The position numbers and the translations under genes were made by a program. Below the pieces are notes generated by a model. The model made no database searches, was not told the origin of the DNA, and saw only the letters and a program-made list of their open reading frames with translations. A stretch of 47,420 bases of DNA from a virus, in IMG/VR virus record IMGVR_UViG_3300049728_000011, positions 1-47,420 of that record. One strand, 5' to 3'. How positions within the stretch are numbered: position 1 is the first letter of the stretch; every line of letters starts with the position of its first letter. Positions 1-47,420 of the stretch are shown here, piece by piece.

Positions 1-127
1 AACTCTGTATTCTCCTTCTGTATTTATTATATATTATTAATATTTTATTTAACTACTATACTAAGAAACAGCTACAGAATGCGGGTTGTAGGCTTATTCA
101 AAAGTACGGAGGGAGATAGTTGTCAAA
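1..127. repeat. Exact terminal redundancy of the window (1-127 identical to 47294-47420), giving circular closure or an assembly overlap
   Basis: Base-by-base comparison of the first and last 127 nt shows identity, which implies a 47,293-bp circular unit. Confidence 0.9.
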
Positions 128-263
128 GTACTACTCCCTCCGTACTTCTGTAATTTCCATGTTGCAGCGCACAATAATAAATTAATACTATGACAACAGA
201 GTACGGAGGGAGAAACAAACTTCTGCCGTACCGGTACGGAAGCTACTGCAAATGAAATAAGTC
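1..263. repeat. Hub repeat copy A, right part (continues from 47169-47293 across the circular junction)
   Basis: Aligns with 24680-24942 with about 12 mismatches. Contains the AT-rich core (21-60), GTACGGAGGGAG boxes at 104-115, 134-145 (inverted) and 201-212, the palindrome CCGTACCGGTACGG at 226-239, and the mini-ORF ATG AAA TAA at 252-260. Confidence 0.85.
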
Positions 264-337
264 GCAGGTTGTCTAACCGATAACTCGATAGCACGTCACT
301 ATCGCCAATAGGCAATCAATTGCGTTACACTGCGCTT

Positions 338-826
338 ATGGCAAAACTCGAACCCGTCCACGCGTCACTTGTGGCTGATCTGGTCGACCTCATCAATTCG
401 AACCTGACCGATTTGCTCAAAGTTCGCACTGTTACGTGCGGCGACTGCCACGGGCGTGGCACCGTCGGCGGTGAGACACGTTCGGACGGCAGCATTTCTG
501 ACGATGGCACACTGGCGACGTGTGCGACGTGTGGCGGGGTTGGTGCCGTTGAGCGGTATGAGATTGATCATGCCGCACTGAAGACCTACAAATACGGGCG
601 GTACGTAGAGGGCTTCGAAGTCAAGCAAGGTGTTGTCGTGCCTAAATTTCGATCTAAAACAAATGCGTTCAACACGTTAACTAAATTGCTCGGATTCGAT
701 AAAGCCGTGGTCGAGATTTCAAACGGGGCAACTTTGTCGCAAACCATTTCCGAAGAGCAAAAAGCGCAGTACGTCGAACAGTTGAAAGAATTGGCGACCA
801 TGGGCTTGCTGGATGGTGGCAAATGA
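338..826 (+). CDS. terS: Terminase small subunit candidate carrying two CxxCxGxG (DnaJ-type) zinc-finger motifs
   Basis: The ORF is directly upstream of terL and overlaps it by ATGA. The C-terminal KTNAFNTLTKLLGFDK segment resembles TerS proteins. ATG 338 is preferred over the TTG at 320 used by the track. Confidence 0.6.
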   Translation: MAKLEPVHASLVADLVDLINSNLTDLLKVRTVTCGDCHGRGTVGGETRSDGSISDDGTLATCATCGGVGAVERYEIDHAALKTYKYGRYVEGFEVKQGVVVPKFRSKTNAFNTLTKLLGFDKAVVEISNGATLSQTISEEQKAQYVEQLKELATMGLLDGGK

Positions 827-4874: not shown

Positions 4875-5345
4875 CTACACTCGCTCAACCAGTTCACAAA
4901 CCCGGCGCAGTTCGCGTTCCTGCGCAGTTCGCGCCGCAGCCCACGCATCGTCCGCAGCATCCCACGCAGCAGCATTTGCAGTCCCCGCAACATCCGCAGC
5001 AGCCCACGCAGCAACATTTGCAGCCTCAGCAGCAGCCCACGCAGCCTCCGCACCATCACCATTTGCAAAGCGTTCAGCGACGTCAAGCGCGTCAAGGCTG
5101 CGTTGATCTGTCATCAAATGCTGCACCTGCCTAGCGCACCAGACCGCATAGAGCCTAATCTCGCGTTCATGACCTTCTACAGCACGCAAACACCACAACG
5201 CATCCTCTAAACCGTTGCTATCCAAAATCTGAATGATGGAAACGGGTTCGTCATCGGCTTTCGTTTTACCTAGTGTGCGCAATAGCTTTTCCCAGCCATC
5301 AGCGCAAGGGCCGTGCTCTCTTATTTTGTTTAATGTGGTTTTCAT
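4875..5345 (-). CDS. Hypothetical protein with C-terminal degenerate AAW(A/D)AA repeats
   Basis: 156-aa ORF preceded by the conserved AACAGGAGCTAAACAA ribosome-binding sequence. It converges on the head morphogenesis gene. Confidence 0.7.
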   Translation of the reverse strand: MKTTLNKIREHGPCADGWEKLLRTLGKTKADDEPVSIIQILDSNGLEDALWCLRAVEGHEREIRLYAVWCARQVQHLMTDQRSLDALDVAERFANGDGAEAAWAAAEAANVAAWAAADVAGTANAAAWDAADDAWAAARTAQERELRRVCELVERV

Positions 5346-5349
5346 TTGT

Positions 5350-5535
5350 TTAGCTCCTGTTTAATCTTGCTCTTTGCTGCCAACAATCTACGGCATCGTT
5401 CACGGTTTGTTTCGGTAGCGTAGATACCCCGCAACGCAAACAAGCAATATAAAACCAGTATGCGTTAGCGGTAATCTTCGTTTGCAGCTCAGCGCGTCCC
5501 TCGCAAAAAGGGCAAAGTTTAAAATTTGTGTTCAT
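5350..5535 (-). CDS. Lar-like zinc-ribbon protein (restriction-alleviation family candidate)
   Basis: CPFCEG...C..CG...A...W pattern. ATG 5535 overlaps the upstream stop as ATGA. The track starts at a GTG at 5547. Confidence 0.6.
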   Translation of the reverse strand: MNTNFKLCPFCEGRAELQTKITANAYWFYIACLRCGVSTLPKQTVNDAVDCWQQRARLNRS

Positions 5536-5708
5536 TTTACTTTCCACACTTTCCAGCCTTCGCGCATATGCTTGTTAGCTTGCCGATTATCTAAATTTGC
5601 TCCTGTAACCCATTCGCCGTCTTTATAGCCGCACCAAACAATGCGATACGGAAAATACTGTTTCAATCGAGCTAATTCGGTTTCTATATTATTTGGCATT
5701 TCAAGCAT
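5532..5708 (-). CDS. Hypothetical 58-aa protein
   Basis: My own translation gives MLEMPNNIETELARLKQYFPYRIVWCGYKDGEWVTGANLDNRQANKHMREGWKVWKVK. GGAG lies 7 nt upstream, and it is the first gene behind promoter-cassette copy 1. It falls below the 60-aa track cutoff. Confidence 0.5.
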   Translation of the reverse strand: MLEMPNNIETELARLKQYFPYRIVWCGYKDGEWVTGANLDNRQANKHMREGWKVWKVK

Positions 5709-5740
5709 TTCATTTCTCCGTTTCGTTTGTCGATGTAGGT

Positions 5741-5769
5741 ATATTAAGCTAACGTAAGGGCAAAGTAAA
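5741..5769 (-). promoter_or_regulatory. Sigma70-type promoter TTTACT-17-TAATAT (cassette copy 1)
   Basis: On the minus strand the -35 is at 5764-5769 and the -10 at 5741-5746. It lies inside the cassette 5715-5784. Confidence 0.5.
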
Positions 5770-5783
5770 GACCTTTTCGTAAA

Positions 5784-6044
5784 TCAACGGAAATAGGTAA
5801 TGCCATTGTCGCACGTCCACCCATTTTGGCTAGGGGTTAAACCCGTGACGATTGCTACACTTCCGTTTGTGCCCACACCCACAGCGGTAAAAGCTTGGCT
5901 TTCTTTAACTGTGGTAATTTTGCAGTTGTGCTCAACTTTAAATGTTTGCCATGTTTGCTCTTCCGCAGCCGCTGCCCGCCAGACTACGCAAAATAGCGCC
6001 GCGAATAGCAATGTGATTAGCGTGCCGCCCAGTAGTTGTCCCAT
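5784..6044 (-). CDS. Small membrane-anchored or secreted protein
   Basis: N-terminal hydrophobic segment LLGGTLITLLFAALFCVVW. It has its own promoter-cassette copy and the conserved ribosome-binding sequence. Confidence 0.65.
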   Translation of the reverse strand: MGQLLGGTLITLLFAALFCVVWRAAAAEEQTWQTFKVEHNCKITTVKESQAFTAVGVGTNGSVAIVTGLTPSQNGWTCDNGITYFR

Positions 6045-6076
6045 GTTTAGCTCCTGTTGTGTTTGTCGATGTAGGT

Positions 6077-6105
6077 ATATTAAGCTAACGTAAGGGCAAA
6101 GTAAA
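6077..6105 (-). promoter_or_regulatory. Sigma70-type promoter TTTACT-17-TAATAT (cassette copy 2)
   Basis: On the minus strand the -35 is at 6100-6105 and the -10 at 6077-6082. It lies inside the cassette 6061-6120. Confidence 0.5.
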
Positions 6106-6158
6106 GCCCTTTTCGCAAATTAGGCGATTTAATTTAACTATCGCGTTGCACACTTCGA

Positions 6159-15017: not shown

Positions 15018-15671
15018 TCATGCCGGGTTCACAGTAGCCCAGTATTCCAGTGCCGCGCTATGCAATGCGCGCTGTGCGTCGTCAAACCCAACTGGCGAAG
15101 ATGTTAGCTCAACTAATGCTCCCGCTGCCGCGTAGGCTGCCATGCCGTGCGCCTGAATGAATGCGCGGCATTGATCCAGGTGCTTTGCGGCGTCGACTAC
15201 ACCCAATTTAGCGGCCAGCTGCGCAATCCACGCCTTCGCTTTGTCGGTTAGCGTTTCGGTTGGCACTGCGTTAAGCTCAACTGGTAGCGTGGACACGACT
15301 TCGGTTAGCGTTTCGACTGGTGTTGCGTTAAGCTCGACTGGCGGCGCGGACACGACTTCGGGTACGACGGTTTCGGCTGGCACGGGCGGCGTAAACGGCC
15401 ATTCCGCAGGCGGGGTTGCTGCTTTCTCCGCTTCGATTTCGGCTTTCGTGCGGCGCTTGCGCTTAGCACCTTCTGGTGCGGTAGTTGCTGTTTCGCTCGG
15501 TTCTGCTGACGGGGCGACCTGTTGTGTCACCTCACCGTCGCAACCGGCAAAAAACTCCCCCGGCGGCGTAGGGCCGGACAACAATTGCTGCAACGCGTAC
15601 TTAGGCTGTTTAAACCGTGCCCAGTCTAAAAACGCGTCGAGTTCGTCCAGCGTGTCAAATGATAGGTGCAT
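15018..15671 (-). CDS. Hypothetical protein containing a 19-aa tandem repeat
   Basis: 217-aa ORF and the last gene of the replication block. It contains 57-nt tandem repeats at 15244-15357. Confidence 0.7.
   Translation of the reverse strand: MHLSFDTLDELDAFLDWARFKQPKYALQQLLSGPTPPGEFFAGCDGEVTQQVAPSAEPSETATTAPEGAKRKRRTKAEIEAEKAATPPAEWPFTPPVPAETVVPEVVSAPPVELNATPVETLTEVVSTLPVELNAVPTETLTDKAKAWIAQLAAKLGVVDAAKHLDQCRAFIQAHGMAAYAAAGALVELTSSPVGFDDAQRALHSAALEYWATVNPA
15244..15357. repeat. Two tandem 57-nt units (plus a partial third) inside CDS 15018-15671
   Basis: Units 15244-15300 and 15301-15357 differ at a few positions. They encode VVS(A/T)(P/L)PVELNA(T/V)P(V/T)ETLT(E/D). Confidence 0.85.
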
Positions 15672-15698: not shown

Positions 15699-15980
15699 TT
15701 ACGCCGCTGCTGCGCGTTCTTTTGCGGCTTGCACTGCGCGCAGCTCGCGCTGAGTTTCAAGCAACGCCCAGCGCACGCCAAGCGCCGCCTCGTTCGCTTT
15801 GATGTGCGCGCCAGCGGCTTGCAAGCGTTCGATAGAAATTGAGTTCGTGTTGCGCATGGTGTAAATAGCGCGTATGGACGTGTTGAACAATGTGGCCGAC
15901 TCTTTGATACCGATAACATCGGTCAATTCGCGCACGTTGAGTTTTTCCAACGGCTTGCTCAAAAAACATACTTTGGTCAT
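15699..15980 (-). CDS. Small helix-turn-helix DNA-binding protein candidate
   Basis: The segment LNVRELTDVIGIKESATLFNTSIRAIYTMR looks like an HTH. It has its own TTGACC-17-TACACT promoter. Confidence 0.6.
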   Translation of the reverse strand: MTKVCFLSKPLEKLNVRELTDVIGIKESATLFNTSIRAIYTMRNTNSISIERLQAAGAHIKANEAALGVRWALLETQRELRAVQAAKERAAAA

Positions 15981-19187: not shown

Positions 19188-21029
19188 CTATTTGTAATCG
19201 GGATCATAACGGAAAGATACTAATTGTTCATCACGAACAAAACGTATCTCAGTTAAAAAGATACGTCCATCTTCGTATTTTGTCAAGGTAATGTCAGTAG
19301 GTTTAGGGAGCATGTCCCGCGTCAGCAACACGCGGTAAGCCTCACTCGGCAGGCGTTGCCCGGTAGCTGCCTCATAATATTTACGTGCTTGCGCAAAGAA
19401 TTTGTTATCGGCCGTGGTGCGGTCAAAATCGAGTTGTAGCCGGTACGCGCCGTAGTCGGTCTCGAATGTAAAGTTAAGCACGCTGTTTCCTGCGGGTTCG
19501 ATCTGCATTGCATATACTTCTAGTGTACGCGTCTCTTTGCACACCTCGTCACGCAGCACCACGTTATCCTCATCATGGATGTCATAGCTGTCAGCGTCAC
19601 CCATGCCACGAGGCCCACGCTCCCCGCGCTGGCACAAACCTAGAAAGCCTTGGCGGGGCCTTCCGCACTGACGGCACGTTAAATGCTCCGCGTCGTTGAG
19701 ATAGCCGCAGCCTTCTGCGCCCTCGTCCAGCAAACCCAGCAAGACGCGCATATCAGGCTGTTCGGCGGGTGAGTTGACGGGAAAGCGCAGCGAGGAACGT
19801 TCCCGCGCTACGGTAGTGATAACGCCGCCAAGCTCGTCACGCCTTGGCGGTGTTTGTATCGTCTGGTCGGTGCATTCCCACAAGCCCACGCGAGAATCAC
19901 CGCTTGTCACGTCTTTGTTAATCGGCCCGTGGCGCACAAAGTTGCCGCCAGCGTCGAGCACGAGACAATTATCTTTGCCCGGATAAGGGCGAAACCCGCG
20001 CCCGACAATTTGCCGCCACAGCACGAGGGATCGCGTTGGCCGGTAGCAGACGATGCAATCCACGAATTTAGCGTTAAAGCCCGTCGTCAGCATGGCCACA
20101 CTGACTATATGCCGGTGCTTCTTCTTGAGGTATTCGTCGATACCGACGACGCGTTCATTCTTTTCCAGTTCGCCGTGGATAATGACCGACGACTCCCCCG
20201 CTTCGCACAGCGCATTATGAATCATGCGCGCATGTTCGATATTGACCGCAAAGTGCATAAAATGCTTACGATCGGGCGCGTTGTCCAACGCTACCGCGAC
20301 GCATTCCCGCGTTATCTCCATCGCGACGCGTGCTAATTCTGCTTCGTCAAAGTCGCCGCCCTTGGTCTTAACGTTGCTCGTATCGATCTGCGGGAAACGA
20401 ATGGACGGTGCGACGATAGGGGATATGTAACCCTCGCGTACTAGACGATTGAAGTTGCGCCCGGAAGTTAAGTCGTACACCACGGACGAGAACAACCCGC
20501 ACTGCGTCAGTGGTACGACTTTCAAACCCTTCATGACAAAGGGAGTAGCAGTCAGTCCGATAAAGCGCACGTTGGGGCGCAACACGCGCAGCCCGTCCAC
20601 AATCGCCTTTGCGGTTTTCAAGTCGATATTAAACGTGTGCGCTTCGTCAATGAGCACATAATCAACCGGCCCAAAACGTTTTACCTGCCGCGACACAGAT
20701 TGCGGCGAGCCGATGATGATCTGCGACATCCGATCTTTCATGTTCAGACCGGCGCAGTACACACCAAGCCGCGCAGTCAGTGCGGGCGCGATGAAACCCA
20801 CTGCTTCGTCAACGTTCTGCTTCACCAATTCCATCGATGGCGCAAGCGACAAAATACGGGCGTTTGGGGTAATTTGTAACAGTCGCTCAATTAGCATCGC
20901 GTTAATTAACGCCTTGCCGCCCCCCGTCACGATAGCCGCTACCGGGTGTACATTGTCTGCAATGCGCATTGACTCGATAACAGCGTCTACCGCCTCCGCT
21001 TGATACCAGCGAGGTTCTAGTGTAGCCAT
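19188..21029 (-). CDS. SF2 DEAH-box helicase with a C-terminal zinc ribbon
   Basis: Helicase motifs VTGGGKA, LIDEAH, GLTATP and QIVGRGFR, with C...CRQC in the C-terminal extension. Confidence 0.92.
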   Translation of the reverse strand: MATLEPRWYQAEAVDAVIESMRIADNVHPVAAIVTGGGKALINAMLIERLLQITPNARILSLAPSMELVKQNVDEAVGFIAPALTARLGVYCAGLNMKDRMSQIIIGSPQSVSRQVKRFGPVDYVLIDEAHTFNIDLKTAKAIVDGLRVLRPNVRFIGLTATPFVMKGLKVVPLTQCGLFSSVVYDLTSGRNFNRLVREGYISPIVAPSIRFPQIDTSNVKTKGGDFDEAELARVAMEITRECVAVALDNAPDRKHFMHFAVNIEHARMIHNALCEAGESSVIIHGELEKNERVVGIDEYLKKKHRHIVSVAMLTTGFNAKFVDCIVCYRPTRSLVLWRQIVGRGFRPYPGKDNCLVLDAGGNFVRHGPINKDVTSGDSRVGLWECTDQTIQTPPRRDELGGVITTVARERSSLRFPVNSPAEQPDMRVLLGLLDEGAEGCGYLNDAEHLTCRQCGRPRQGFLGLCQRGERGPRGMGDADSYDIHDEDNVVLRDEVCKETRTLEVYAMQIEPAGNSVLNFTFETDYGAYRLQLDFDRTTADNKFFAQARKYYEAATGQRLPSEAYRVLLTRDMLPKPTDITLTKYEDGRIFLTEIRFVRDEQLVSFRYDPDYK

Positions 21030-21731: not shown

Positions 21732-21953
21732 TCATTCTGGTTTCTTTGCGAGACCGCGCCAGCCCTGCACAGTGCCGTCGTAGCATTGCCTGCTCCGGTC
21801 TTTCCGAAACATGTAACAAAAGTCTATGGTAGGCATAGTCAGACCCCAATAAAGACCGCTCCAATACGCGTATGCTAAGACATTCCCTTCCACTCGATAT
21901 ACGCCTACGTGGACGGGCGCGACTGACATGGGAAATATTGGTGTTAGTTTCAT
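21732..21953 (-). CDS. Hypothetical small protein
   Basis: 73-aa ORF, ATGA-coupled to the primase-helicase stop. Confidence 0.6.
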   Translation of the reverse strand: MKLTPIFPMSVAPVHVGVYRVEGNVLAYAYWSGLYWGLTMPTIDFCYMFRKDRSRQCYDGTVQGWRGLAKKPE

Positions 21954-24439
21954 TTCCGTAACTCCGAGTTAAAGGGATTGTTAAGTGGAAGTGTAACCAC
22001 TTTGTCGGAAATGTCAATAAATGTTTCTGGTGCGTTGTAGTAGCGCATGCCCATTCCATCCTTGCCAACTGTCCACCCGCGAGCAATTAACCACTGCGAT
22101 ATTTCCTTTGCAGCGAATCTTCGGCCAGTGACCAAGGTGTCGAGTGCTAAGCGCAGCGCTGACGATTGGACGCGGCGTTTCTCATTGAGCGCAATCTGTT
22201 GGCGCAGGATGCCCGGTAGCAGGTCGTCCAAATCAGACAACGGGATACCGTCGCCACGTAACATAGCATCATTGTTGTATTCAAACACGGCGCGGGATGC
22301 TGCATTAGCGATGGCATAGTATTTGCTTTCATCTTCGCAGAAGCATCTCTTTGCCTCAGCCAATATCTGCCGCGCTTCAACCGACCAATTGTCAGACAGA
22401 CTGCCGCGTGCGAACACCGGATAGAAACGCCGGTTGCCAGTTTCGTCCCGATTCGTTTCGTACTTGTTTGCTGTGCCAAACGGCACAAAGCGGCGCGGGT
22501 GCGCTTCTTCGTGCTTCTCGTAGGGTTTGCGGTACACGTCATTATCATCTGTCACCCAGCGCTTGATTTCGTCTGCGTCGCGCTTGTTCAGCCCGGACAT
22601 TTCCGCGAGTTCGCAAATAACAGATCGCGCTGCTGCCATGGACATGCGCCGGTCTTCTGAGAACGCAACAGATGCGGGTGAAGGCGCTCCTAACGCTTTA
22701 GCTATCTCCCCTACGAAACGACTTTTACCAATACCTTGCCGACCTATCAATACAGGGACGACCGGGGCCGTAATGCCGGGTTTGAGCTGGCGCATGATGA
22801 TTGCCGCAAAAAACGCTTTAGAAACGATTGGAAGTGCTGGGGCGGGTTCCGCATCAAACGCGTCAATAAAAACGCTCTGAAGGCGCTCTACGCCATCCCA
22901 AACGGGTAAATTCAACACAGCGTCTTTCCACGGATCGCGCCGGTTCATATCTGCAAGGGCTTCTATTGCTCTTTCGACAATACCCGGCGTGACGTTGGCG
23001 CAGCCGATACGTGATAAGGCTTCGACTAGCCTGCCCACGGTCGGCACGTCTTGCGTGTCGGCCATGGTGGTGCAAACGTCAAAAACAGGAAGTGCATCAA
23101 TTTCGCGCAGCAGCAGTTCCAGACCGTGCATGACGTTCACGAAGGGCGCGGCTTTCTTCGTGGGTTCGGGGTACTCAACCAAGCCGCATAGTTTCTCCGC
23201 GGCTAAGTCCAGTGGGCTAGCAAGGTCGGCAGCAGACGCATTGGTAAATGCAAAGAACTCCTGCAACTTGTGGGACCACACGCCGGGCGTGTCGCCCATA
23301 CGCACAATCTCGGCTTTTGTGGTCAACTTGTCCGACATGTCAGGACGCCATGTATCGAACGGGTCAGCGCAATGCTTGCCCAGTGCGTCAGCAAGGTTTG
23401 AGAGCACTTGTTCAACCGTCACAAACCCGACGCCTGCAACGTACAGGGTCCACGATTTCGGGAGTGCCTTGTCACCTAGCGCACGCGTAGCGAGCAGCCC
23501 GTACCGCTCGCCTTGTTGCGGGTCTAAGCCTGCGGCTATCGCATTTTGTTTTTGATAGTCAATAGCTATCGTCTTGGCTTCCCTGCGTCGCGCATTCTTT
23601 GCGTTGCGCACGGCGGTAGCGAAACGGCGCTCTTCGATTTCACGAACAGCGGGTAGCAACTGCGCGTCAAGCATCCCTTCAGCGGTGCGGTATTTAGTCG
23701 GTGCGCCGAGTACTTGCGGGGGGCGCTCCACAAAACGTTGCTCAAAGGGAACCTCGCGGATCACGTCACCGACCAAGACCGGGTTTGCTTCGAACATCAA
23801 GCGCGAAGGCTGGTAGACCAGTGAATCGGACAATTGCCGGGTAAGTAGCGCGCCTGACTTTGAAATTTTGATATGCCCCCGTCCCGCAGCCCATTGCTCG
23901 ATCTGCATACGCTTCGCTAGCGCGGGGATATCCGTACCCCGCGTGACGGCAACGTAGACGTGTACGCCGCGTAACCCCCGCCCGGCTACGAACGACGACG
24001 ACGAAGGGCGCGCAACCCGGTGAACGTGCGCGAGCCATGGTGAACATGCTTCCAGTGCGTCTAGCACGGCCTCGGGCGATTGAAAGCCATCCCCTTCCAC
24101 GTCTACGTCAATCGGGAACAATGCAGGGCCATAAGGAAACACAAACCCCTCATTGGTGCGCGCTACTGCGTCGTGTCGGAAATCTGCCCCGGCGCGGGTG
24201 GTTAGGAGCGTGTCGCCTACAGCAGGGATACCGCACGTAATCGCTTGGTTCGACGTGAGCAAATCCAGTAACAGCCGCAATGCCGACAAGTTGGGCAGCG
24301 TCACAATACGCGCCGTGCCTTCTGTCATGTGCGCAATGGCCGTGCTTTCTACTGCGTCAGCGTCGTTTCGTTTGAATGTCTTAGTGAGTTCGCAATTCGT
24401 CGCAGTGATCTGCGCGAACTGGATGTTGGTTATCTGCAT
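21950..24439 (-). CDS. Primase-helicase (VirE / D5-like P-loop NTPase with a large N-terminal domain)
   Basis: 829 aa with Walker A LIGRQGIGKS. The C-terminal half resembles VirE-family phage primase-helicases. It is the first gene leftward of hub copy B. Confidence 0.85.
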   Translation of the reverse strand: MQITNIQFAQITATNCELTKTFKRNDADAVESTAIAHMTEGTARIVTLPNLSALRLLLDLLTSNQAITCGIPAVGDTLLTTRAGADFRHDAVARTNEGFVFPYGPALFPIDVDVEGDGFQSPEAVLDALEACSPWLAHVHRVARPSSSSFVAGRGLRGVHVYVAVTRGTDIPALAKRMQIEQWAAGRGHIKISKSGALLTRQLSDSLVYQPSRLMFEANPVLVGDVIREVPFEQRFVERPPQVLGAPTKYRTAEGMLDAQLLPAVREIEERRFATAVRNAKNARRREAKTIAIDYQKQNAIAAGLDPQQGERYGLLATRALGDKALPKSWTLYVAGVGFVTVEQVLSNLADALGKHCADPFDTWRPDMSDKLTTKAEIVRMGDTPGVWSHKLQEFFAFTNASAADLASPLDLAAEKLCGLVEYPEPTKKAAPFVNVMHGLELLLREIDALPVFDVCTTMADTQDVPTVGRLVEALSRIGCANVTPGIVERAIEALADMNRRDPWKDAVLNLPVWDGVERLQSVFIDAFDAEPAPALPIVSKAFFAAIIMRQLKPGITAPVVPVLIGRQGIGKSRFVGEIAKALGAPSPASVAFSEDRRMSMAAARSVICELAEMSGLNKRDADEIKRWVTDDNDVYRKPYEKHEEAHPRRFVPFGTANKYETNRDETGNRRFYPVFARGSLSDNWSVEARQILAEAKRCFCEDESKYYAIANAASRAVFEYNNDAMLRGDGIPLSDLDDLLPGILRQQIALNEKRRVQSSALRLALDTLVTGRRFAAKEISQWLIARGWTVGKDGMGMRYYNAPETFIDISDKVVTLPLNNPFNSELRK

Positions 24440-24554: not shown

Positions 24555-24942
24555 TTGCCGTAAAGAAAGGTACGGAGGGACGGAGTACGGAGGAAGGTTT
24601 TTGAGACCCTGTATACTTTGCGAAAGTAGTAATAAGTACCCTACTTATTACTACTTTCTTCATCCAGTGCTTATATAGTAACTCTGTATTCTCCTTCTGT
24701 ATTTATTATATATTATTAATATTTTATTTAACTACTATACTAAGAAACAGCTACAGAATGCGGGTTGTAGGCTTATTCAAAAGTACGGAGGGAGATAGTT
24801 GTCAAAATACTACTCCCTCCGTACTTCTGTAAAATCCATGTTGCAGCGCACAATAAATAATTAACACTCTGACAACAGAGTACGGAGGGAGAAACCCTCT
24901 CCTGCCGTGCCGGTACGGAAGCTACTGCAAATGAAATAAGTC
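24555..24942. repeat. Hub repeat copy B (388 bp, non-coding) between the primase-helicase start and the nuclease start
   Basis: Direct-orientation copy of 47169-47293 plus 1-263. Boxes lie at 24570-24580, 24585-24595, 24783-24794, 24813-24824 (inverted), 24880-24891 and 24913-24921, and the palindrome stem is 24622-24638 pairing with 24642-24658. Confidence 0.85.
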
Positions 24943-25005: not shown

Positions 25006-26196
25006 ATGTCTATTCCAGTAGCCGTGCATTCGAAGTTGTCATTCTCATCACGCAGGCGTTGGCGTAATTGCCCGGAAAGCGTACAAATGTCGGTCGGTTT
25101 TTCAGATGTATCAGGCACTGCCGCGCTAGAAGGTACGATTGCGCATACCGTTGCCGAATTTTATGTGCGCCAAAAGTTTAGTTTGGAGGGTGCCGCAAGT
25201 GGGGAAGCGCCGCTGCAAGCGCCGCCTGTCGACTTAGACCTGAAGGGTAAATCCGTCGAGGATTGGAACGCAGAACTACGCAAACACGGCAAGGCTTATG
25301 CCGAGTTTATCCAGTCGTTGATCCCCGCAGGCTATCAAGGGTTTGTCACGATTGAAAAGAAAGTAGCCATCCCGTCAATTTCGGATCAGTTGTTCGGTAC
25401 GGCCGATTGCATCGTCTGGGTGCCTGCGCATCATTTACTGATCGTCGTTGATTACAAATACGGGTTTGAAGATGTAGCTTGCGGCGACGCGGAAGACACA
25501 AACCCGCAACTTGCAGCTTATCTTGTCGCCGCTGCCGAAACGTTCGAACTCGACCCTGTACGCATGATGGTTGCAGTATTTCAGCCGCGTCGCGTCATCG
25601 GCATGGCCGGGCAAGCGCTGGAACTCCCCGCCGATTGGCTGCAACGCGAGCGCTTGCTACTAGCGCAAGAAGTGCAGCACACGCAATTACCCGGTGAACC
25701 CGTTGCAGGTGAACATTGCCGTTACTGTCGCGCAAAAGCGGCTTGTCCACGCACCCACGAAGCCGTCGCAGGTGCCCTGAATAATTACGCGGGACTGCGC
25801 AGCCTACACGATATGACCGACGATGAAGTTGTGCAGTTGTGGGCGGCGCGCACCGCATTTAAATCGTTTTGGGAAGACGTCGGACAGCGCATCGAGAACT
25901 TAGCCAAAACGGGCCACCCTGCGATTCAAATTACGACCAAGCCGGGGCGGCGCATGTGGCGGGATGAAAAAGAAGTCGCGCTTACTTTGCTCGCTTACGG
26001 TATGCATGACTTGCTAGAACCTAAAGCATTGTCTGAAGTGTACGACCGCCTGCCCGCAGGATTGCGCGACACGTTGATCAAACGCTCGGCAGATCAAAAG
26101 TCCGTGAAATTGGTTGCGCCCGGTGCGCCTTCTGAAGTTGCAAAATTGTTTAAACAGTACTCAAATATTATTGACCAAAGTGTAAAACTTGATTAA
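25006..26196 (+). CDS. PD-(D/E)XK nuclease, Cas4-like (DUF2800-like), with a four-Cys cluster
   Basis: N-terminal SSRRRWRNCPES and EGTIAHT motifs, and C-terminal CRYCRAKAAC. It is the first gene rightward of hub copy B. Confidence 0.85.
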   Translation: MSIPVAVHSKLSFSSRRRWRNCPESVQMSVGFSDVSGTAALEGTIAHTVAEFYVRQKFSLEGAASGEAPLQAPPVDLDLKGKSVEDWNAELRKHGKAYAEFIQSLIPAGYQGFVTIEKKVAIPSISDQLFGTADCIVWVPAHHLLIVVDYKYGFEDVACGDAEDTNPQLAAYLVAAAETFELDPVRMMVAVFQPRRVIGMAGQALELPADWLQRERLLLAQEVQHTQLPGEPVAGEHCRYCRAKAACPRTHEAVAGALNNYAGLRSLHDMTDDEVVQLWAARTAFKSFWEDVGQRIENLAKTGHPAIQITTKPGRRMWRDEKEVALTLLAYGMHDLLEPKALSEVYDRLPAGLRDTLIKRSADQKSVKLVAPGAPSEVAKLFKQYSNIIDQSVKLD

Positions 26197-27022: not shown

Positions 27023-27051
27023 CGACGTGTATATTTATTTACGAAAAGGGC

Positions 27052-27080
27052 TTTACTTTGCCCTTACGTTAGCTTAATAT
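27052..27080 (+). promoter_or_regulatory. Sigma70-type promoter TTTACT-17-TAATAT (cassette copy 3)
   Basis: The -35 is at 27052-27057 and the -10 at 27075-27080. It lies inside the 70-nt cassette 27037-27106. Confidence 0.5.
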
Positions 27081-27111
27081 ACCTACATCGACAAACGAAA
27101 CGGAGACTGAG

Positions 27112-27267
27112 ATGAAACAACGTATGTATCATGTAGTTGCGATCAACGAAAAGTCGGGGAAGAAGGTCGTTGTTACTGGATACCCAATGACACACCAAGA
27201 ATGCTGCATTCTCCTATCTAAGCTCACTCCCCACCCCGCACGTCGCTTGCAGCTTGAGGAAGTTTAA
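27112..27267 (+). CDS. Hypothetical 51-aa protein
   Basis: My own translation gives MKQRMYHVVAINEKSGKKVVVTGYPMTHQECCILLSKLTPHPARRLQLEEV. GGAGA lies 6 nt upstream, and it is the first gene behind promoter-cassette copy 3. Confidence 0.5.
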   Translation: MKQRMYHVVAINEKSGKKVVVTGYPMTHQECCILLSKLTPHPARRLQLEEV

Positions 27268-41423: not shown

Positions 41424-41513
41424 TCAGCCCAGTTTAACCGCTAGCCACGACAGGAGCAAATAGCCGAAAAGCGCTAATGTCAGGTCAGACATGCCTTGTA
41501 AGAACTTCTTCAT
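41424..41513 (-). CDS. Possible 29-aa hydrophobic peptide
   Basis: My own translation gives MKKFLQGMSDLTLALFGYLLLSWLAVKLG. It has a TAATG overlap with the upstream stop and ends 2 nt before the next ATG. Confidence 0.3.
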   Translation of the reverse strand: MKKFLQGMSDLTLALFGYLLLSWLAVKLG

Positions 41514-41794
41514 TATTCAACCCCCGGTTGATCGAGCATCCAATTGATCCAAGCAAGGCGGATCAGCCTACGCTGGCGCTTCGGTCCCGCCCAAAGCGCG
41601 AATGTGTTGCACTCCCAGATTGCGGCGTGCTCTTTAATTCGGAAAGCGGCGTCATGGTACTCAATATCGCTGTAAGGCACGGCCTGACGCTCAACAACTT
41701 GTGCAAGTACGAAAGAAACGGGGCGATCATCGCCGCTTTCGATCAGTTCTCTCGCAGCAACTAGCAACTCTCGCTCAACCTTATTCAGTGCCAT
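41513..41794 (-). CDS. Hypothetical protein, tandem paralogue 2
   Basis: Starts MALNKVERELLVAARELIESG and ends WINWMLDQP. It is a paralogue of 41800-42087. The track start at 41839 is an extension. Confidence 0.65.
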   Translation of the reverse strand: MALNKVERELLVAARELIESGDDRPVSFVLAQVVERQAVPYSDIEYHDAAFRIKEHAAIWECNTFALWAGPKRQRRLIRLAWINWMLDQPGVE

Positions 41795-41799
41795 GACAT

Positions 41800-42087
41800 T
41801 CACTCCATCTCTGGTTGATCGAGCATCCAATCTATCCAAGCCAGACGGTCTTGCTTGACACCACGTTGAGCATCATAACCATTTGCGCGCTGCCAGCTGT
41901 CGAGTGCTATATGCGGCGCTAGCGCTTTGCTAATATAGCGTTCGAGGCGCTTCGCTGCATCCATGTAGTAATATCTGCGACGACTGGTAGCGTTCTGTAT
42001 TGCGTGGCAAATGTAGAATTCTTCACCGCTTTCGATCAGTTCTCTCGCAGCAACTAGCAACTCCCGCTCAATCTTATTCAACGCCAT
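41800..42087 (-). CDS. Hypothetical protein, tandem paralogue 1
   Basis: Starts MALNKIERELLVAARELIESG and ends WIDWMLDQP. The track start at 42144 is an extension. Confidence 0.65.
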   Translation of the reverse strand: MALNKIERELLVAARELIESGEEFYICHAIQNATSRRRYYYMDAAKRLERYISKALAPHIALDSWQRANGYDAQRGVKQDRLAWIDWMLDQPEME

Positions 42088-42149
42088 AACGTTCTCCTGT
42101 TGTAAGTGTGTAGCTATCTTACGAAAACGTAACGGCAATGTCAAGCTAT

Positions 42150-43958
42150 TTAACGCACAGCGCTGTTGCGATTTTGTGGTCCGGTCAGGCGTTGTATCCC
42201 GTTGACGAATTCGCCGGGGTTGTTCGCCTGCACGGTCACGCTCTGGATGCTGATTGAAGTGCCTGCCGGGGCTGCGCCAGCCGAATCCGGGCCGTTGTAC
42301 CCGCTGGATAACTTGTCAGCTAGCTGTCCGCGACGGATCGATTCGGACAAGTTGCCGTGTACCTCGAACGTGTCGGAGAAAGACTTGCCGAGTTGTTGCG
42401 CGCCACCACCCACGCCTAGCGACTTGCGCAGTAACCCGGACTCGTAAGGGTTAGAGAACAGGAAATCAAGTTGCTGGTCGATTGTTCCGCCATCAGGACG
42501 AACTCCATACTTCGACAAGAAAGCGTCAGAGCGCGCACCACGCCATTGGAACAGACCGCGTGCGCCGCTGCCTCCGCCTTCGGCGTTGAAGTTACTCAAT
42601 TTCCCGCCCGATTCACTCATCGCATTAGCTGCGACTGCTGCGGCTTGCGGCACAGTCAGCCCGTATTTTGTGATCAGCTTGGTCATCAGGTCTTGCGAAC
42701 TGACCGTGCCGCCAGCGCCAGTTGTAGCTGTGCTGGGGGTGGCTGCGGGTTTGTTCAATCCGAACAGGTTAGCGATAGGCGCGGGGCCTTCGCTACGCGC
42801 TTTATCGACAAGCTTACGCCAAGAGTCGAGGAGCGACCCGAAGCCCTTTTCCACATTTTCGCCAATGCTGTTCAGCACCCCGCTAGGACCATTTGGGTTG
42901 ACGTTGACCTCGCCTTTAGTAAGTGCGTCAGTTGCTTTTTTTATAACGCCCACTACATTCGAAACAATGTACGCGAGTACGTCGAGCCATTCGCCCAATT
43001 GTGTCAGCGCCTTGATATAGATATCAGTCGCCGTGGGCAGTTCCTCGCGCATGACTTTGATGAAGCCGTCTAGACCCCCACCAGCAGCCATGATACGGTC
43101 AACAAATGCTGACACTTCCTTTGCACCTTTGCTTGTCCAATCCGCGAAGCCTTGTATTGCGGGCTGTAGTATCGTCGCTAGCGAATTTGCAACGTTAATC
43201 GCCGAATTTTCAACCGCCGACATCGCGTCAGCGACGGCGGCCATTGCTTTTTTGTTCTCTTCAGCAGCTTCAGCAAGTGACTTAGTGTATGCGGCGCGGG
43301 CATCCGTTTCCGACTTGATCATCAGAATCAAGTCCGGAGATACGCCCTGCGCAGATAGACCTGACTCGATCTGCCGCTGTTGCGCGGGACTCGAAGCGCG
43401 GTACATGTGCTGCGCTTGCTCTAAAATATCCGCAATAGGCGTATCCGCACCCGCACGAATGCCCATACGCGAAAACGCGGCGAGAGTCGGCGCATTGCCG
43501 GTGATGTTAAACTGTTGCTGTTCTCGCGCAAGGTCAGCTATGGCCTGCGCGCCGCTGGACGCGTCAGCGCCAAGACGCCGGGCTGTGCTGCCCCATGCCT
43601 GCATTTCTCGGTTAGACAAGTTAGTCGAAACTGCGGCGCGGCGCAGGTTCGTTTCCATGCCCGCCAAAGACACCACAGCGCCGACTAGCCCGGCTACTGA
43701 GCCGACGCCGAGCACACTCGCCAAGGACAACGACAAGCCTTTCAGCGCATTAGTTAGCGTTTTGGTTTCGCTAGTCGATTGCTTGGTGCGCTTGATCTGC
43801 TCTTTTTCGCGCTTGCTGCGCTTGTCATCTTCTTTGACGCGTTTCTTCTCAGTCTTTTCAACCTGTTGATCGACTTGCTTATCTGCTTTTTTGAACTCAG
43901 CATCGTCCAGCGTGAGCTTAACGACAAGTTCGTCCACCACGTTTCCGTTATCAGCCAT
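42150..43958 (-). CDS. Tape measure protein with a C-terminal lysozyme-like (tail lysozyme) domain
   Basis: About 600 aa, with a charged coiled N-terminus and a hydrophobic GLSLSLASVLGVGSVAGLVGAVV segment. The C-terminal MSESGG...GLFQWRG motif resembles phage tail lysozyme domains. ATG 43958 is preferred over the TTG at 43964. Confidence 0.85.
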   Translation of the reverse strand: MADNGNVVDELVVKLTLDDAEFKKADKQVDQQVEKTEKKRVKEDDKRSKREKEQIKRTKQSTSETKTLTNALKGLSLSLASVLGVGSVAGLVGAVVSLAGMETNLRRAAVSTNLSNREMQAWGSTARRLGADASSGAQAIADLAREQQQFNITGNAPTLAAFSRMGIRAGADTPIADILEQAQHMYRASSPAQQRQIESGLSAQGVSPDLILMIKSETDARAAYTKSLAEAAEENKKAMAAVADAMSAVENSAINVANSLATILQPAIQGFADWTSKGAKEVSAFVDRIMAAGGGLDGFIKVMREELPTATDIYIKALTQLGEWLDVLAYIVSNVVGVIKKATDALTKGEVNVNPNGPSGVLNSIGENVEKGFGSLLDSWRKLVDKARSEGPAPIANLFGLNKPAATPSTATTGAGGTVSSQDLMTKLITKYGLTVPQAAAVAANAMSESGGKLSNFNAEGGGSGARGLFQWRGARSDAFLSKYGVRPDGGTIDQQLDFLFSNPYESGLLRKSLGVGGGAQQLGKSFSDTFEVHGNLSESIRRGQLADKLSSGYNGPDSAGAAPAGTSISIQSVTVQANNPGEFVNGIQRLTGPQNRNSAVR

Positions 43959-46744: not shown

Positions 46745-47112
46745 AGCAGCACCTGCGAAGAATTGCCGCTGATGTCGGTGGTGGTAATTGCCCCGGAAAC
46801 CGTGCGGTTAGCAAATGTGAAATCGGCGGTAGCTTGCACTACGTCCGAAACTTTCAAGGCCTGTGTCGTGAACGAGTTTTGTACAAGTGTGAGGTTGGGT
46901 GCTTGCCCGAGAATATTGCTGTAGCGTATTCCTTGCGTCGTGTCGTAGTAAAGCTCTCCGTACCATGTCAGGCAGCGCGTAGCTACGTCCTGCGCCATGC
47001 GTATTGCCGGACCTGTCGAGTCGCCCGGCGTAGCGTCGCCCACCGTTGCCCAATTGCCGTATTGGTCAACGGTTAAATCCCATAGCGAATAATCAAGTGC
47101 AACAGTATCCAT
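46741..47112 (-). CDS. Baseplate wedge-like small protein candidate (start uncertain)
   Basis: This is the first gene leftward of hub copy A. The in-frame ATGs are at 47112 and 47142. The track start at 47277 lies inside the hub palindrome and is rejected. Confidence 0.6.
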   Translation of the reverse strand: MDTVALDYSLWDLTVDQYGNWATVGDATPGDSTGPAIRMAQDVATRCLTWYGELYYDTTQGIRYSNILGQAPNLTLVQNSFTTQALKVSDVVQATADFTFANRTVSGAITTTDISGNSSQVLL

Positions 47113-47168: not shown

Positions 47169-47420
47169 TTGCTGTAAAGAAAGGTACGGAGGGACGGAGT
47201 ACGGAGGAAGGTTTTTGAGACCCTGTACACTTTGCGAAAGTAGTAATAAGTACCCTACTTATTACTACTTTCTTCATCCAGTGCTTATATAGTAACTCTG
47301 TATTCTCCTTCTGTATTTATTATATATTATTAATATTTTATTTAACTACTATACTAAGAAACAGCTACAGAATGCGGGTTGTAGGCTTATTCAAAAGTAC
47401 GGAGGGAGATAGTTGTCAAA
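47169..47420. repeat. Hub repeat copy A, left part, plus the 127-nt window overlap
   Basis: Aligns with 24555-24806. Boxes lie at 47184-47194 and 47199-47209, and the palindrome stem is 47236-47252 pairing with 47256-47272. Confidence 0.85.

What the first reader, a model, noticed from the sequence alone, without database searches (positions are those of the whole stretch)
1..263. Iteron-like array: five GTACGGAGG(G/A)A boxes and seven GTACGG cores per hub
In copy A the boxes are at:
- 47184-47194 (GTACGGAGGGA)
- 47199-47209 (GTACGGAGGAA)
- 104-115 (GTACGGAGGGAG)
- 134-145 (the same box inverted)
- 201-212 (GTACGGAGGGAG)

There is also the 14-bp palindrome CCGTACCGGTACGG at 226-239, which is two inverted GTACGG half-sites. 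Copy B has the same set at 24570, 24585, 24783, 24813 (inverted), 24880 and 24906-24919.

A given 9-mer is expected about 0.4 times by chance in 2 x 47 kb. GTACGGAGG occurs five times in each hub, and I did not notice it elsewhere in the window. The boxes flank the AT-rich core on both sides, which is the classical geometry of iteron-type origins and of multi-operator regulatory regions.

Every box also contains GGAGG, a Shine-Dalgarno-like sequence. On rightward transcripts the boxes would therefore be strong anti-SD-binding sites far from any start codon.
Basis: seen in the sequence. Interest (0 to 1): 0.8.

Follow-up and report, generated by a model that had tools for sequence, protein, structure and literature searches.

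The report
Duplicated iteron-type phage replication origin
The repeated GTACGGAGG boxes are real and lie only in two near-identical 388-bp control regions of a Bcep781-like phage, where they most likely act as binding sites (iterons) for the phage's own primase-helicase around an easily melted AT-rich core, that is, a duplicated replication origin of the kind known from staphylococcal pathogenicity islands.

Summary
GTACGGAGG occurs 11 times against 0.2 expected, which is 10 unique sites because the window ends overlap by 127 bp. All sites lie in two 388-bp direct repeats, which fill the genome's only two divergent intergenic junctions.

The window is a closed ~47.3-kb genome of a Bcep781-like myophage. 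Its nearest isolate is Ralstonia phage PQ43W. All six related genomes where both junctions were seen carry the same duplicated hub, as direct repeats in five and inverted repeats in Xanthomonas phage phiXaf18.

The box sequence is lineage-specific (ACGGAGG, GGTGGGA, ACAGACG, TGACAGAT and others), but the layout is constant. Boxes sit on both sides of a 10-27 % GC core, and every hub has at least one box on each side pointing toward it.

That is the geometry of SaPI replication origins. The adjacent primase-helicase is a sequence and fold homologue of SaPI Rep1 and ends in a winged-helix domain. Perfect DnaA boxes occur only in the hubs of three relatives.

Best reading (about 0.5): a duplicated iteron origin that probably also acts as an operator for the flanking promoters. 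A purely transcriptional operator remains a strong rival (about 0.3). The Shine-Dalgarno idea is not supported.

The parts
24555..24942 (.). Hub B: a 388-bp repeat copy between the primase-helicase gene (leftward) and the exonuclease gene (rightward).
   Evidence: Direct-repeat families D1 and D2; sequence read.
47169..47293 (.). Hub A, left part. It continues at base 1; bases 47294-47420 are an assembly overlap identical to 1-127.
1..263 (.). Hub A, right part, upstream of the TerS-like gene (ATG at 338).
47184..47210 (+). Hub A left iteron pair: GTACGGAGGGAC and GTACGGAGGAAG, 15 bp start to start, both pointing toward the core.
104..145 (.). Hub A: box GTACGGAGGGAG at 104-115 (+) and the same box inverted at 134-145 (-). 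Together they form a 12-14-bp inverted repeat with an 18-nt spacer.
   Evidence: The homologous hub B sequence (24783-24824) folds as a hairpin.
201..212 (+). Hub A box GTACGGAGGGAG.
220..245 (.). Hub A: two degenerate boxes in inverted orientation, GTACGGCAGAAG (-) and GTACGGAAGCTA (+). They share the 14-bp palindrome CCGTACCGGTACGG at 226-239.
   Evidence: for the minus-strand box and the palindrome; the plus-strand box at 234-245 was read directly and is not a hit in the search. In relative L003 this palindrome is duplicated on both sides of a ~560-bp insertion.
24570..24596 (+). Hub B left iteron pair.
24783..24824 (.). Hub B box (+) and inverted box (-).
24880..24891 (+). Hub B box GTACGGAGGGAG.
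24899..24924 (.). Hub B degenerate inverted box pair with an imperfect palindrome, CCGTGCCGGTACGG, at 24906-24919.
24675..24749 (.). AT-rich core of hub B (GC 10-18 %), the candidate DNA-unwinding element. The equivalent in hub A is 47289-47293 plus 1-70.
24622..24658 (.). Perfect 17-bp-stem, 3-nt-loop palindrome GAAAGTAGTAATAAGTA-CCC-TACTTATTACTACTTTC between the left iterons and the core. The hub A copy is at 47236-47272.
   Evidence: (I4). The apex AAGTACCC(C)TACTT is kept in L005/L010 and L019, which have different boxes.
21950..24439 (-). Primase-helicase (829 aa), the candidate initiator. It has a VapE-like SF3 ATPase at residues 513-715 and a C-terminal winged helix at about 752-815 (nt 21995-22186).

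Best explanation
Each hub is a replication origin of the SaPI Rep / P4 alpha type.

Proposed mechanism (inferred):
1. The 9-12-bp GTACGGAGG(G/A)(A/G) boxes are iterons for the C-terminal winged-helix domain of the phage's own primase-helicase.
2. They lie on both sides of a 10-18 % GC unwinding element.
3. Boxes on opposite sides point toward each other, so two helicase hexamers can self-load in opposite orientation and start bidirectional replication.

The origin is present twice, once at each of the two divergent gene-cluster junctions, and the copies are kept alike by recombination. Because the hubs lie between the promoter-proximal ends of all four gene clusters, initiator binding probably also modulates their transcription.

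Shown:
- The boxes, their exclusivity to the hubs, and their geometry.
- Conservation of that layout across the phage family.
- Homology and fold of the initiator.

Inferred:
- That this protein binds these boxes.
- That replication starts here.
For: 1. The boxes are exclusive to the two hubs: 11 observed against 0.2 expected, and the 12-mer with up to 1 mismatch is found nowhere else.
2. Duplicated hubs with repeated boxes occur across the family:
   - PQ43W: GTACGG[AC][AG]G, 8 of 11 genome matches in the hubs.
   - Bcep781: TGAC[AG]GAT, 16 of 18 in the hubs.
   - phiXaf18, and IMG/VR contigs with ACGGAGGA, GGTGGGA, ACAGACGA or TGACAC boxes.
   - The box persists between our phage and PQ43W, L017 and L018, although the hub DNA is otherwise too diverged for blastn.
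3. In all 10 hubs examined, at least one box on each side of the AT minimum points toward it. PQ43W and L027 are clean >>|<< cases, and L027 has perfect 25-bp inverted ends. SaPI origins are described in the same way: 6-12 short iterons, an AT-rich centre, and at least 2 iterons on each side in opposite directions, bound by the Rep C-terminal winged helix (PMC9371898; PMC7581432).
4. The gene next to hub B encodes a primase-helicase related to SaPI1 Rep1:
   - Residues 480-705 match PDB 7PDS at E = 7.7e-28.
   - The AlphaFold model of residues 480-829 (pLDDT 84) has 7PDS as best fold match over ~375 alignment columns, gaps included, which implies most of its length (E = 2.9e-15).
   - The last ~100 residues fold as beta-alpha-alpha-beta-beta and match only winged-helix domains.
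5. Perfect DnaA boxes (TTATCCACA) occur in the hubs of three relatives and nowhere else in the sequence fetched for them: PQ43W in both hubs, phiXaf18, and L024. My rough estimate of the chance expectation is about 0.05 over ~7 kb of hub DNA.
6. Weak covariation: after regressing on N-terminal identity, the C-terminal domain is more alike in lineages sharing a box class (permutation p about 0.05). All four TGACA-box lineages share a shorter wing, R[ST]x-xxR.
Against: - There is no experimental or read-depth evidence for initiation at the hubs.
- The origin lies upstream of the initiator gene and is present twice. In SaPIs there is one copy, immediately downstream of rep.
- The boxes are 9-12 bp rather than 5-6 bp.
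- In our phage the right side is mixed (> < > < >) rather than cleanly convergent.
- The covariation signal is weak and confounded by phylogeny. The L001-L019 C-terminal identity (50 %) is about the same as L001-L017 (52 %). L027 and phiXaf18 share a box core but only 34 % C-terminal identity.
- There is no DnaA box in our hubs.
- A hub at both divergent junctions, and only there, in every genome examined is what a promoter/operator cassette would predict without further assumptions.
Confidence: 0.5

Rival explanations
1. The hub is purely a transcriptional control cassette. The boxes are operator or activator sites for a phage-encoded regulator other than the primase-helicase. By binding both flanks, and possibly looping the AT-rich core, the regulator co-ordinately controls the divergent promoters of all four gene clusters.
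For: - Hubs occupy exactly the two divergent junctions in all six genomes where both junctions were seen.
- Either hub side can face any of the four clusters in different phages, as expected for a symmetric bidirectional promoter unit.
- In L017 and L009 a box sits directly upstream of a perfect extended -10, TGgTATAAT.
- The unique flanks are short (56-115 bp).
- Two small HTH-like proteins are conserved family-wide.
Against: - No repressor-like gene was found by Pfam or PHROGs among the 19 small or unassigned ORFs of the two early clusters and the 4875-6044 cluster that were scanned.
- The recognition helix of the clearest HTH protein (15699-15980, S.RAIYT.RNT) is conserved across lineages with different boxes, so it is unlikely to read them.
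- Promoter-like elements conserved across lineages lie in the unique flanks outside the repeat: TTTACT-17-TAAGAT before the exonuclease gene and TTACACT-N6-ATG before the TerS-like gene.
- This reading does not explain the DnaA boxes.
- It is not mutually exclusive with the origin reading.
Confidence: 0.3
2. The boxes form a packaging (pac) recognition site for the adjacent TerS-like zinc-ribbon protein. This would resemble the P1 or SPP1 pac sites, where repeats flank the cleavage region.
For: - Hub A lies directly upstream of the TerS-like and TerL genes.
- By my recollection, boxes flanking a core also describes the P1 and SPP1 pac sites.
Against: - Bcep781-like genomes are reported as 'highly, maybe completely, circularly permuted' (PMC2771037), which argues against a fixed pac site.
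- A second identical copy next to the primase and exonuclease genes has no packaging logic.
- The variable zinc-ribbon loop of the TerS-like protein does not track box type.
Confidence: 0.05
3. The hubs are recombination sites. The repeated and inverted boxes, or the whole hubs, mediate inversion or exchange of genome arms, and the boxes bind a recombination protein.
For: - One genome arm is inverted relative to the hubs in our phage and PQ43W compared with Bcep781 and phiXaf18.
- In phiXaf18 the two hubs are inverted repeats.
- Relative L003 carries a ~560-bp insertion flanked by two copies of the box palindrome.
- The two copies evolve in concert.
Against: - No site-specific recombinase gene appeared among the large ORFs and the 19 small ORFs scanned.
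- General homologous recombination between 190-390-bp repeats, using the phage exonuclease, annealing-type protein and RusA, explains both the inversions and the concerted evolution without specific boxes.
Confidence: 0.07
4. The boxes act at the RNA level. As GGAGG-containing Shine-Dalgarno mimics they would bind 30S subunits or shape leader structure.
For: - Every strong box contains GGAGG.
- The box and inverted-box pair can form a 14-bp hairpin.
Against: - Boxes occur on both strands.
- The homologous hubs of related lineages use boxes without GGAGG.
- No Rfam family matches.
Confidence: 0.03

Closest known systems
SaPI replication origins bound by Rep/PriRep self-loading helicases (Staphylococcus aureus pathogenicity islands; Ubeda et al. 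2007, as described in PMC9371898 and PMC7581432)
   Same: - The initiator is a homologous VapE-like SF3 helicase, fused to an N-terminal half that PHROGs files as DNA primase (as in PriRep5), with a C-terminal winged helix.
- The origin is a set of short repeats on both sides of an AT-rich centre, with repeats on opposite sides pointing in opposite directions.
- Repeat sequences are specific to each lineage.
   Different: - The boxes are 9-12 bp, not 5-6 bp.
- The element lies upstream of the initiator gene in a divergent promoter region, not immediately downstream of it.
- There are two near-identical copies per genome.
- The host element is a virulent myophage, not a satellite island.
- Binding has not been tested.
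Phage P4 ori plus crr, bound by the alpha primase-helicase
   Same: - A primase-SF3 helicase fusion with a C-terminal winged-helix origin-binding domain.
- Short (8-bp) iterons in both orientations.
- Two separate iteron-bearing regions in one genome.
   Different: - P4 ori and crr are different sequences 4.5 kb apart, not near-identical copies half a genome apart.
- Homology of our C-terminal domain to the P4 origin-binding domain was not detected or tested directly.
Bacillus phage SPP1 oriL and oriR, bound by G38P (from my own knowledge)
   Same: Two origin regions in a ~44-kb headful-packaging phage, each with repeated initiator boxes next to an AT-rich segment.
   Different: - The initiator family is unrelated.
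- oriL lies inside a gene.
- The two copies are not whole-region duplicates at divergent junctions.
Plasmid iteron origins (pSC101, RK2, R6K, P1 oriR)
   Same: Repeated initiator sites next to an AT-rich unwinding region. DnaA boxes are present in some relatives' hubs. Autoregulation by the initiator is plausible.
   Different: [quoted passage not shown]
- Here the boxes are 9-12 bp, on both sides, in both orientations and irregularly spaced (15, 33 and 97 bp).
- No Rep_3-type initiator appeared among the ORFs scanned.
Polyomavirus non-coding control region
   Same: An origin with inverted short repeats for an SF3 helicase, placed between divergent transcription units so that the replication origin and the bidirectional promoters share one region.
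   Different: A eukaryotic virus in which the origin-binding domain is N-terminal. This is an analogy only.

Membership tests
SaPI-type (Rep/PriRep) iteron origin | The initiator is an SF3/VapE-like self-loading helicase homologous to SaPI Rep. | tested here: met
   phmmer against the PDB: residues 480-705 match 7PDS (SaPI1 Rep1) at E = 7.7e-28. Pfam VapE-like domain at E = 4.5e-43. Best fold match is 7PDS at E = 2.9e-15 over ~375 alignment columns.
SaPI-type (Rep/PriRep) iteron origin | A C-terminal winged-helix domain that reads the iterons. | tested here: met
   The fold is met; the binding function is untested. The model of residues 730-829 has the order helix, strand, helix, helix, strand, strand. 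All top Foldseek hits are winged-helix domains (F93, MecI, PadR, MCM8 and ORC winged helices), but with weak E-values of 0.04-0.25.
SaPI-type (Rep/PriRep) iteron origin | Six to twelve short repeats per origin. | tested here: met
   Each hub has five strong and two degenerate boxes. The boxes are 9-12 bp, longer than the 5-6 nt of SaPIs.
SaPI-type (Rep/PriRep) iteron origin | An AT-rich centre with iterons on both sides, at least two per side, pointing in opposite directions. | tested here: met
   Core GC is 10-18 %. The left side has two boxes (>>). The right side has the inverted box and the inverted half of the palindrome, which is weak in hub B. Clean >>|<< layouts occur in PQ43W and L027.
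SaPI-type (Rep/PriRep) iteron origin | The origin lies immediately downstream of the rep gene, as a single copy. | tested here: not met
   Hub B is upstream of the primase-helicase gene. A second copy lies ~22.6 kb away between the baseplate-wedge and TerS-like genes.
SaPI-type (Rep/PriRep) iteron origin | Cognate specificity: the C-terminal domain varies together with the iteron sequence. | tested here: inconclusive
   Same-box lineages have somewhat more similar C-terminal domains after regressing on N-terminal identity (permutation p about 0.05), and TGACA-box lineages share a wing motif. The result is confounded by phylogeny and has counter-examples.
SaPI-type (Rep/PriRep) iteron origin | The initiator binds and melts the origin, and replication starts there. 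| not testable with these tools
   This needs EMSA or footprinting and in vivo origin mapping.
Plasmid-type iteron origin (Rep_3 / pi / TrfA class) | 17-22-bp direct repeats, tandem, in one orientation and regularly spaced beside the AT-rich region. | tested here: not met
   The boxes are 9-12 bp, in both orientations, on both sides, with spacings of 15, 33 and 97 bp.
Plasmid-type iteron origin (Rep_3 / pi / TrfA class) | DnaA box(es) in the origin. | tested here: not met
   There is no TTWTNCACA in the window's hubs; the only match in the window is at 42847, in coding sequence. Perfect DnaA boxes are present in the hubs of PQ43W, phiXaf18 and L024.
Phage multi-operator region (lambda OR/OL-like) | Palindromic operators for a dimeric repressor encoded next to them. 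| tested here: not met
   The main boxes are asymmetric. No repressor-like gene flanks either hub. The conserved HTH protein does not vary with box type.
pac site of a headful-packaging phage | A unique packaging start site defining a limited permutation of virion DNA. | not testable with these tools
   The literature reports highly or completely permuted genomes for Bcep781-like phages (PMC2771037), which argues against this reading. No read data are available here.

The most novel reading that the evidence does not exclude
The hub may be a single orientation-independent module that couples three functions:
- Initiation of replication by a self-loading primase-helicase.
- Control of all four operons, in the manner of a polyomavirus control region.
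- Recombination between its two copies, which flips a genome arm.

Under this reading the family can re-wire which gene cluster hangs on which side of the origin while keeping both copies identical. This would be a previously undescribed way of organising a virulent phage genome around two interchangeable origin/promoter cassettes.
Probability: 0.15. Interest if true: 0.7.

Novelty: new variant of a known kind. Interest (0 to 1): 0.45.

Why it matters
- **A testable origin for this phage group.** No origin or transcription programme for Bcep781-like phages (Burkholderia, Ralstonia and Xanthomonas biocontrol candidates) turned up in the papers I could search. This finding gives a concrete model: a defined cis element, a named candidate initiator, and a set of natural specificity variants for swap experiments.
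- **Wider reach of the SaPI origin design.** It would extend the SaPI Rep/iteron architecture from Gram-positive satellites to virulent myophages of Proteobacteria.
- **Two unusual features.** The origin would be present in two concertedly evolving copies, and it sits at every divergent junction regardless of orientation.
- **Practical use.** Hub DNA on a plasmid could titrate the initiator, as in origin-derived phage-encoded resistance. The boxes also give a quick marker for lineage typing.

Tried and rejected
- **DNA similarity:** blastn (distant mode) of hub B against 50,697 phage records found nothing. The hub is not alignable outside the near clade.
- **RNA genes:** Rfam at gathering thresholds and ARAGORN found no RNA family or tRNA.
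- **Promoter and terminator scan:** the sigma-70/terminator scan of hub B gave counts no higher than in shuffles. The one good promoter hit (ATGACA-18-AATAAT) lies in the unique flank and would remove the primase-helicase gene's Shine-Dalgarno sequence.
- **Within-clade conservation:** an alignment of hub copies from the 93-99 % related contigs is too invariant to separate boxes from spacers.
- **Search for a regulator:**
  - Pfam and PHROGs on 19 small or unassigned ORFs gave no repressor or HTH family.
  - The PQ43W 'HTH regulator' gene (PQ43W_26, 19873-20112) was matched by none of the window proteins compared with it.
  - The phiXaf18 sigma-70-region-4-like protein has no homologue here.
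- **Covariation of box type with candidate proteins:** the gp64-like HTH protein was rejected because its recognition helix is conserved. The gp54-like and TerS-like proteins showed no pattern. The primase C-terminal domain showed a weak signal.
- **GC skew:** cumulative GC skew follows gene strand only and gives no origin signal.
- **Literature:** the primary Bcep781 paper (Summer et al. 2006, PMC1317576) is not held, so I could not check whether the intergenic repeats were already described. Searches for Bcep781 with 'intergenic' or 'repeat' found no description.
- **MITE reading:** considered because L027 has 25-bp terminal inverted repeats. Rejected because the position is fixed at the same two junctions across deeply diverged genomes.

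Full report
**1. Observation**

GTACGGAGG occurs 11 times on both strands against 0.20 expected, with at most 2 in any of 100 dinucleotide-preserving shuffles.

Two corrections apply.
- Bases 47294-47420 are identical to 1-127. The window is therefore a circularly closed ~47,293-bp genome, and the hit at 47397 is the same site as 104. There are ten unique sites, five per hub.
- Hub B has six GTACGG cores, not seven, because its palindrome reads CCGTGCCGGTACGG.

The extended 12-mer GTACGGAGGGAG with up to 1 mismatch is confined to the hubs. The halves of the 14-bp palindrome are degenerate boxes: GTACGGCAGAAG is a 3-mismatch hit, and GTACGGAAGCTA is read directly from the sequence.

The boxes sit in two 388-bp direct repeats, 24555-24942 and 47169-47293 plus 1-263, which are 95-99 % identical. 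The centre of each repeat falls to 10-18 % GC.

**2. Context**

PHROG and Pfam scans and tblastn place the genome among Bcep781-like myophages. The primase-helicase is 73 % identical to that of Ralstonia phage PQ43W and 57 % to Burkholderia phages Bcep781, Bcep1, Bcep43 and BcepNY3.

The genes form four clusters on alternating strands, and the two hubs fill the only two divergent junctions.
- Hub A lies between the baseplate-wedge gene (true start at 47112) and the TerS-like gene (ATG at 338).
- Hub B lies between the primase-helicase gene (start at 24439) and a PD-(D/E)XK exonuclease gene (start at 25006).

**3. Comparative evidence**

Every related genome for which both junctions were available has the same design of two near-identical hubs.

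| Genome | Hub copies | Evidence |
|---|---|---|
| PQ43W | 300 bp at 100 % plus 55 bp at 91 %, direct | |
| Bcep781 | about 380 bp at 92-98 %, direct | |
| IMG/VR 3300021076_000006, 3300010399_000014, 3300044259_000044 | near-identical copies at both junctions | |
| Xanthomonas phage phiXaf18 | about 190 bp, inverted repeats | |

The hub DNA evolves fast. blastn finds no match between our hub and any phage record, including PQ43W. The boxes nevertheless persist or are replaced in place.

| Lineage | Box |
|---|---|
| PQ43W | GTACGG(A/C)(G/A)G |
| L017, L018 | ACGGAGGA, ACGGAAGA |
| L019 | GGTGGGA |
| L027 | ACAGACGA |
| L022, L025, L029 | TGACA(C/A/G) |
| Bcep781 | TGAC(A/G)GAT |
| L012 | GTGTGATAG |

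Enrichment in the hubs is strong where whole genomes are available. In Bcep781, 16 of 18 genome matches lie in the hubs. In PQ43W, 8 of 11 do. In our window, 14 of 14 do.

The boxes are the conserved or co-evolving part, and the surrounding sequence is not.

**4. Geometry**

In all ten hubs analysed, at least one box on each side of the AT-richest 60 bp points toward it.

| Hub | Box orientation (left \| right of the AT minimum) |
|---|---|
| PQ43W | >> \| << |
| L027 (with perfect 25-bp inverted ends) | >> \| << |
| L022 | >>> \| < |
| phiXaf18 | > \| <<< |
| This phage, hub A | >> \| > < > < > |

The hub is thus roughly two-fold symmetric. That fits the finding that it works in either orientation and with any cluster on either side.
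- In our phage, one hub side faces the wedge and primase genes and the other faces the TerS-like and exonuclease genes.
- In Bcep781 the pairs are TerS-like and wedge on one side, exonuclease and primase on the other.
- In phiXaf18 the junctions are exonuclease|TerS-like and primase|wedge.

**5. Candidate binder**

Residues 480-705 of the primase-helicase match SaPI1 Rep1 (PDB 7PDS) at E = 7.7e-28.

An AlphaFold2 model of residues 480-829 (mean pLDDT 84) has 7PDS as its best Foldseek match at E = 2.9e-15. The alignment of ~375 columns, gaps included, implies coverage of most of the model. The next matches are the NrS-1, ASFV and mpox primase-helicases and SaPI5 PriRep5.

A separate model of the last 100 residues has the element order helix, strand, helix, helix, strand, strand. 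It matches only winged-helix domains, with weak E-values.

Qiao et al. 2022 (PMC9371898) describe SaPI origins as follows.
- They have 6-12 short iterons.
- The iterons are read by the Rep C-terminal winged helix.
- The centre is AT-rich.
- At least two iterons lie on each side, pointing in opposite directions.
- Two hexamers probably self-load there.

[quoted passage not shown] This is the closest known system, and it fits the hub in protein family, domain order and cis geometry.

**6. Further support and its limits**

Perfect DnaA boxes (TTATCCACA) occur in the hubs of PQ43W (both copies), phiXaf18 and L024, and nowhere else in the sequence fetched for them. My rough estimate of the chance expectation is about 0.05 perfect boxes over ~7 kb of hub DNA. 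Our hubs have none.

Covariation between box class and the C-terminal domain is only suggestive.
- The domain is 56-66 % identical between our phage and same-box lineages, against 40 % to L019, although the N-terminal 700 residues are 71-75 % identical in all of these comparisons.
- PQ43W-L019 (50 %) is about the same as PQ43W-L017 (52 %).
- After regressing on N-terminal identity, the permutation p is about 0.05.
- The four TGACA-box lineages share a shorter wing motif.

Other candidates fared worse. The conserved HTH protein (15699-15980) keeps its recognition helix across all box types. The gp54-like and TerS-like proteins show no pattern.

**7. Rivals**

- **Transcriptional operator.** This remains strong. 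A hub at both divergent junctions, and only there, is what promoter cassettes predict. One lineage has a perfect extended -10 next to a box. The operator and origin readings can both be true, since initiators commonly autoregulate. Against a purely transcriptional role, promoter-like elements conserved across lineages lie in the unique flanks outside the repeat, and no regulator that tracks the boxes was found.
- **pac site.** This is unlikely because the group's genomes are reported to be highly or completely permuted (PMC2771037).
- **Specific recombination site.** This is not needed. Homologous recombination between 190-390-bp repeats explains both the arm inversion and the concerted evolution.
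- **Shine-Dalgarno mimic.** This fails because boxes lie on both strands and other lineages' boxes lack GGAGG.

**8. Novelty and verdict**

The element works like a known kind, the SaPI Rep, P4 alpha or SPP1 type of iteron origin. It differs in four ways.
- It is duplicated as a whole.
- It sits upstream of the initiator gene, at each divergent junction.
- It is orientation-independent.
- Its boxes are longer.

I could not read the 2006 Bcep781 genome paper, so the bare existence of the intergenic repeats may already have been noted. No paper that my four Bcep781 full-text searches returned, and that I opened, describes the boxes or an origin.

I rate it a new variant of a known kind, of moderate interest. 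Confidence is about 0.5 for the origin mechanism and about 0.3 for a purely transcriptional role.

Noticed in passing
window 47294-47420 and 1-127: The window ends are a 127-bp exact overlap that breaks inside the hub's AT-rich core. This looks like a circular-assembly artefact at a repeat, not a biological terminal repeat.
   Followed up: partly
window 24622-24658 and 47236-47272: A perfect 17-bp-stem, 3-nt-loop palindrome lies between the left iterons and the AT core. Its apex AAGTACCC(C)TACTT is kept in L005/L010 and L019, which have different boxes and different stem sequences. It may be a second, independently conserved cis element, such as a cruciform, a priming hairpin or a dimer binding site.
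   Followed up: partly
window 5720-5787 (-), 6056-6120 (-), 27034-27106 (+): Three copies (94-97 % identical) of a cassette that I read as a good sigma-70-type promoter (TTTACT-17-TAATAT). The one copy read in full (27034-27106) lies upstream of the small gene at 27112. A shared ribosome-binding cassette, AACAGGAGCTAAACAAATG, recurs at six small genes (5335, 6032, 27838, 45836, 46014, 46248).
   Followed up: partly
whole window compared with L002 (Bcep781) and L013 (phiXaf18): One genome arm is inverted relative to the hubs in this phage and PQ43W compared with Bcep781 and phiXaf18. In phiXaf18 the two hubs are themselves inverted repeats, so hub-hub recombination could generate genome isomers.
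   Followed up: partly
L003 about 2330-2900: In a 93-98 % related contig, hub B carries a ~560-bp insertion bracketed by two copies of cctgCCGTACCGGTACGGaagc, the box palindrome. The insert has no convincing ORF.
   Followed up: partly
L001 16943 and 46893; L013 28976, 29125 and 47357; L024 3108: Perfect or consensus DnaA boxes occur only inside the hubs of PQ43W, phiXaf18 and L024. There are none in the window's hubs.
   Followed up: yes
window 296-340, and upstream of TerS-like genes in L009, L010 and L002: The TerS-like gene has no Shine-Dalgarno sequence. The motif TATCGCC...TTGAC(A/G)ATTGCGTTACACT-N6-8-ATG, conserved across lineages, places a -10-like TACACT so that transcription would start at or near the ATG. 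The mRNA may therefore be leaderless.
   Followed up: no
window 338-826: The protein in the small-terminase position carries a DnaJ/anti-TRAP-like CxxCxGxG zinc ribbon. The loop of the ribbon varies in length between lineages.
   Followed up: partly
window 41517-42094 and 15244-15357: Repeats spaced ~290 bp apart (82-89 % identical; 41517/41804 and 41727/42020) lie across two adjacent small ORFs (41513-41839 and 41800-42144). A 57-bp tandem duplication lies inside the 217-aa ORF at 15018-15671.
   Followed up: no
window 5350-5547 (-): A 65-aa ORF matches the Lar restriction-alleviation family (Pfam PF14354, E = 2e-8).
   Followed up: no
L001 40361-40960 and 1190-1530: PQ43W has long arrays of 15-bp repeats, and of 9-12-bp repeats, inside two coding genes. 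These are unrelated to the hubs.
   Followed up: no
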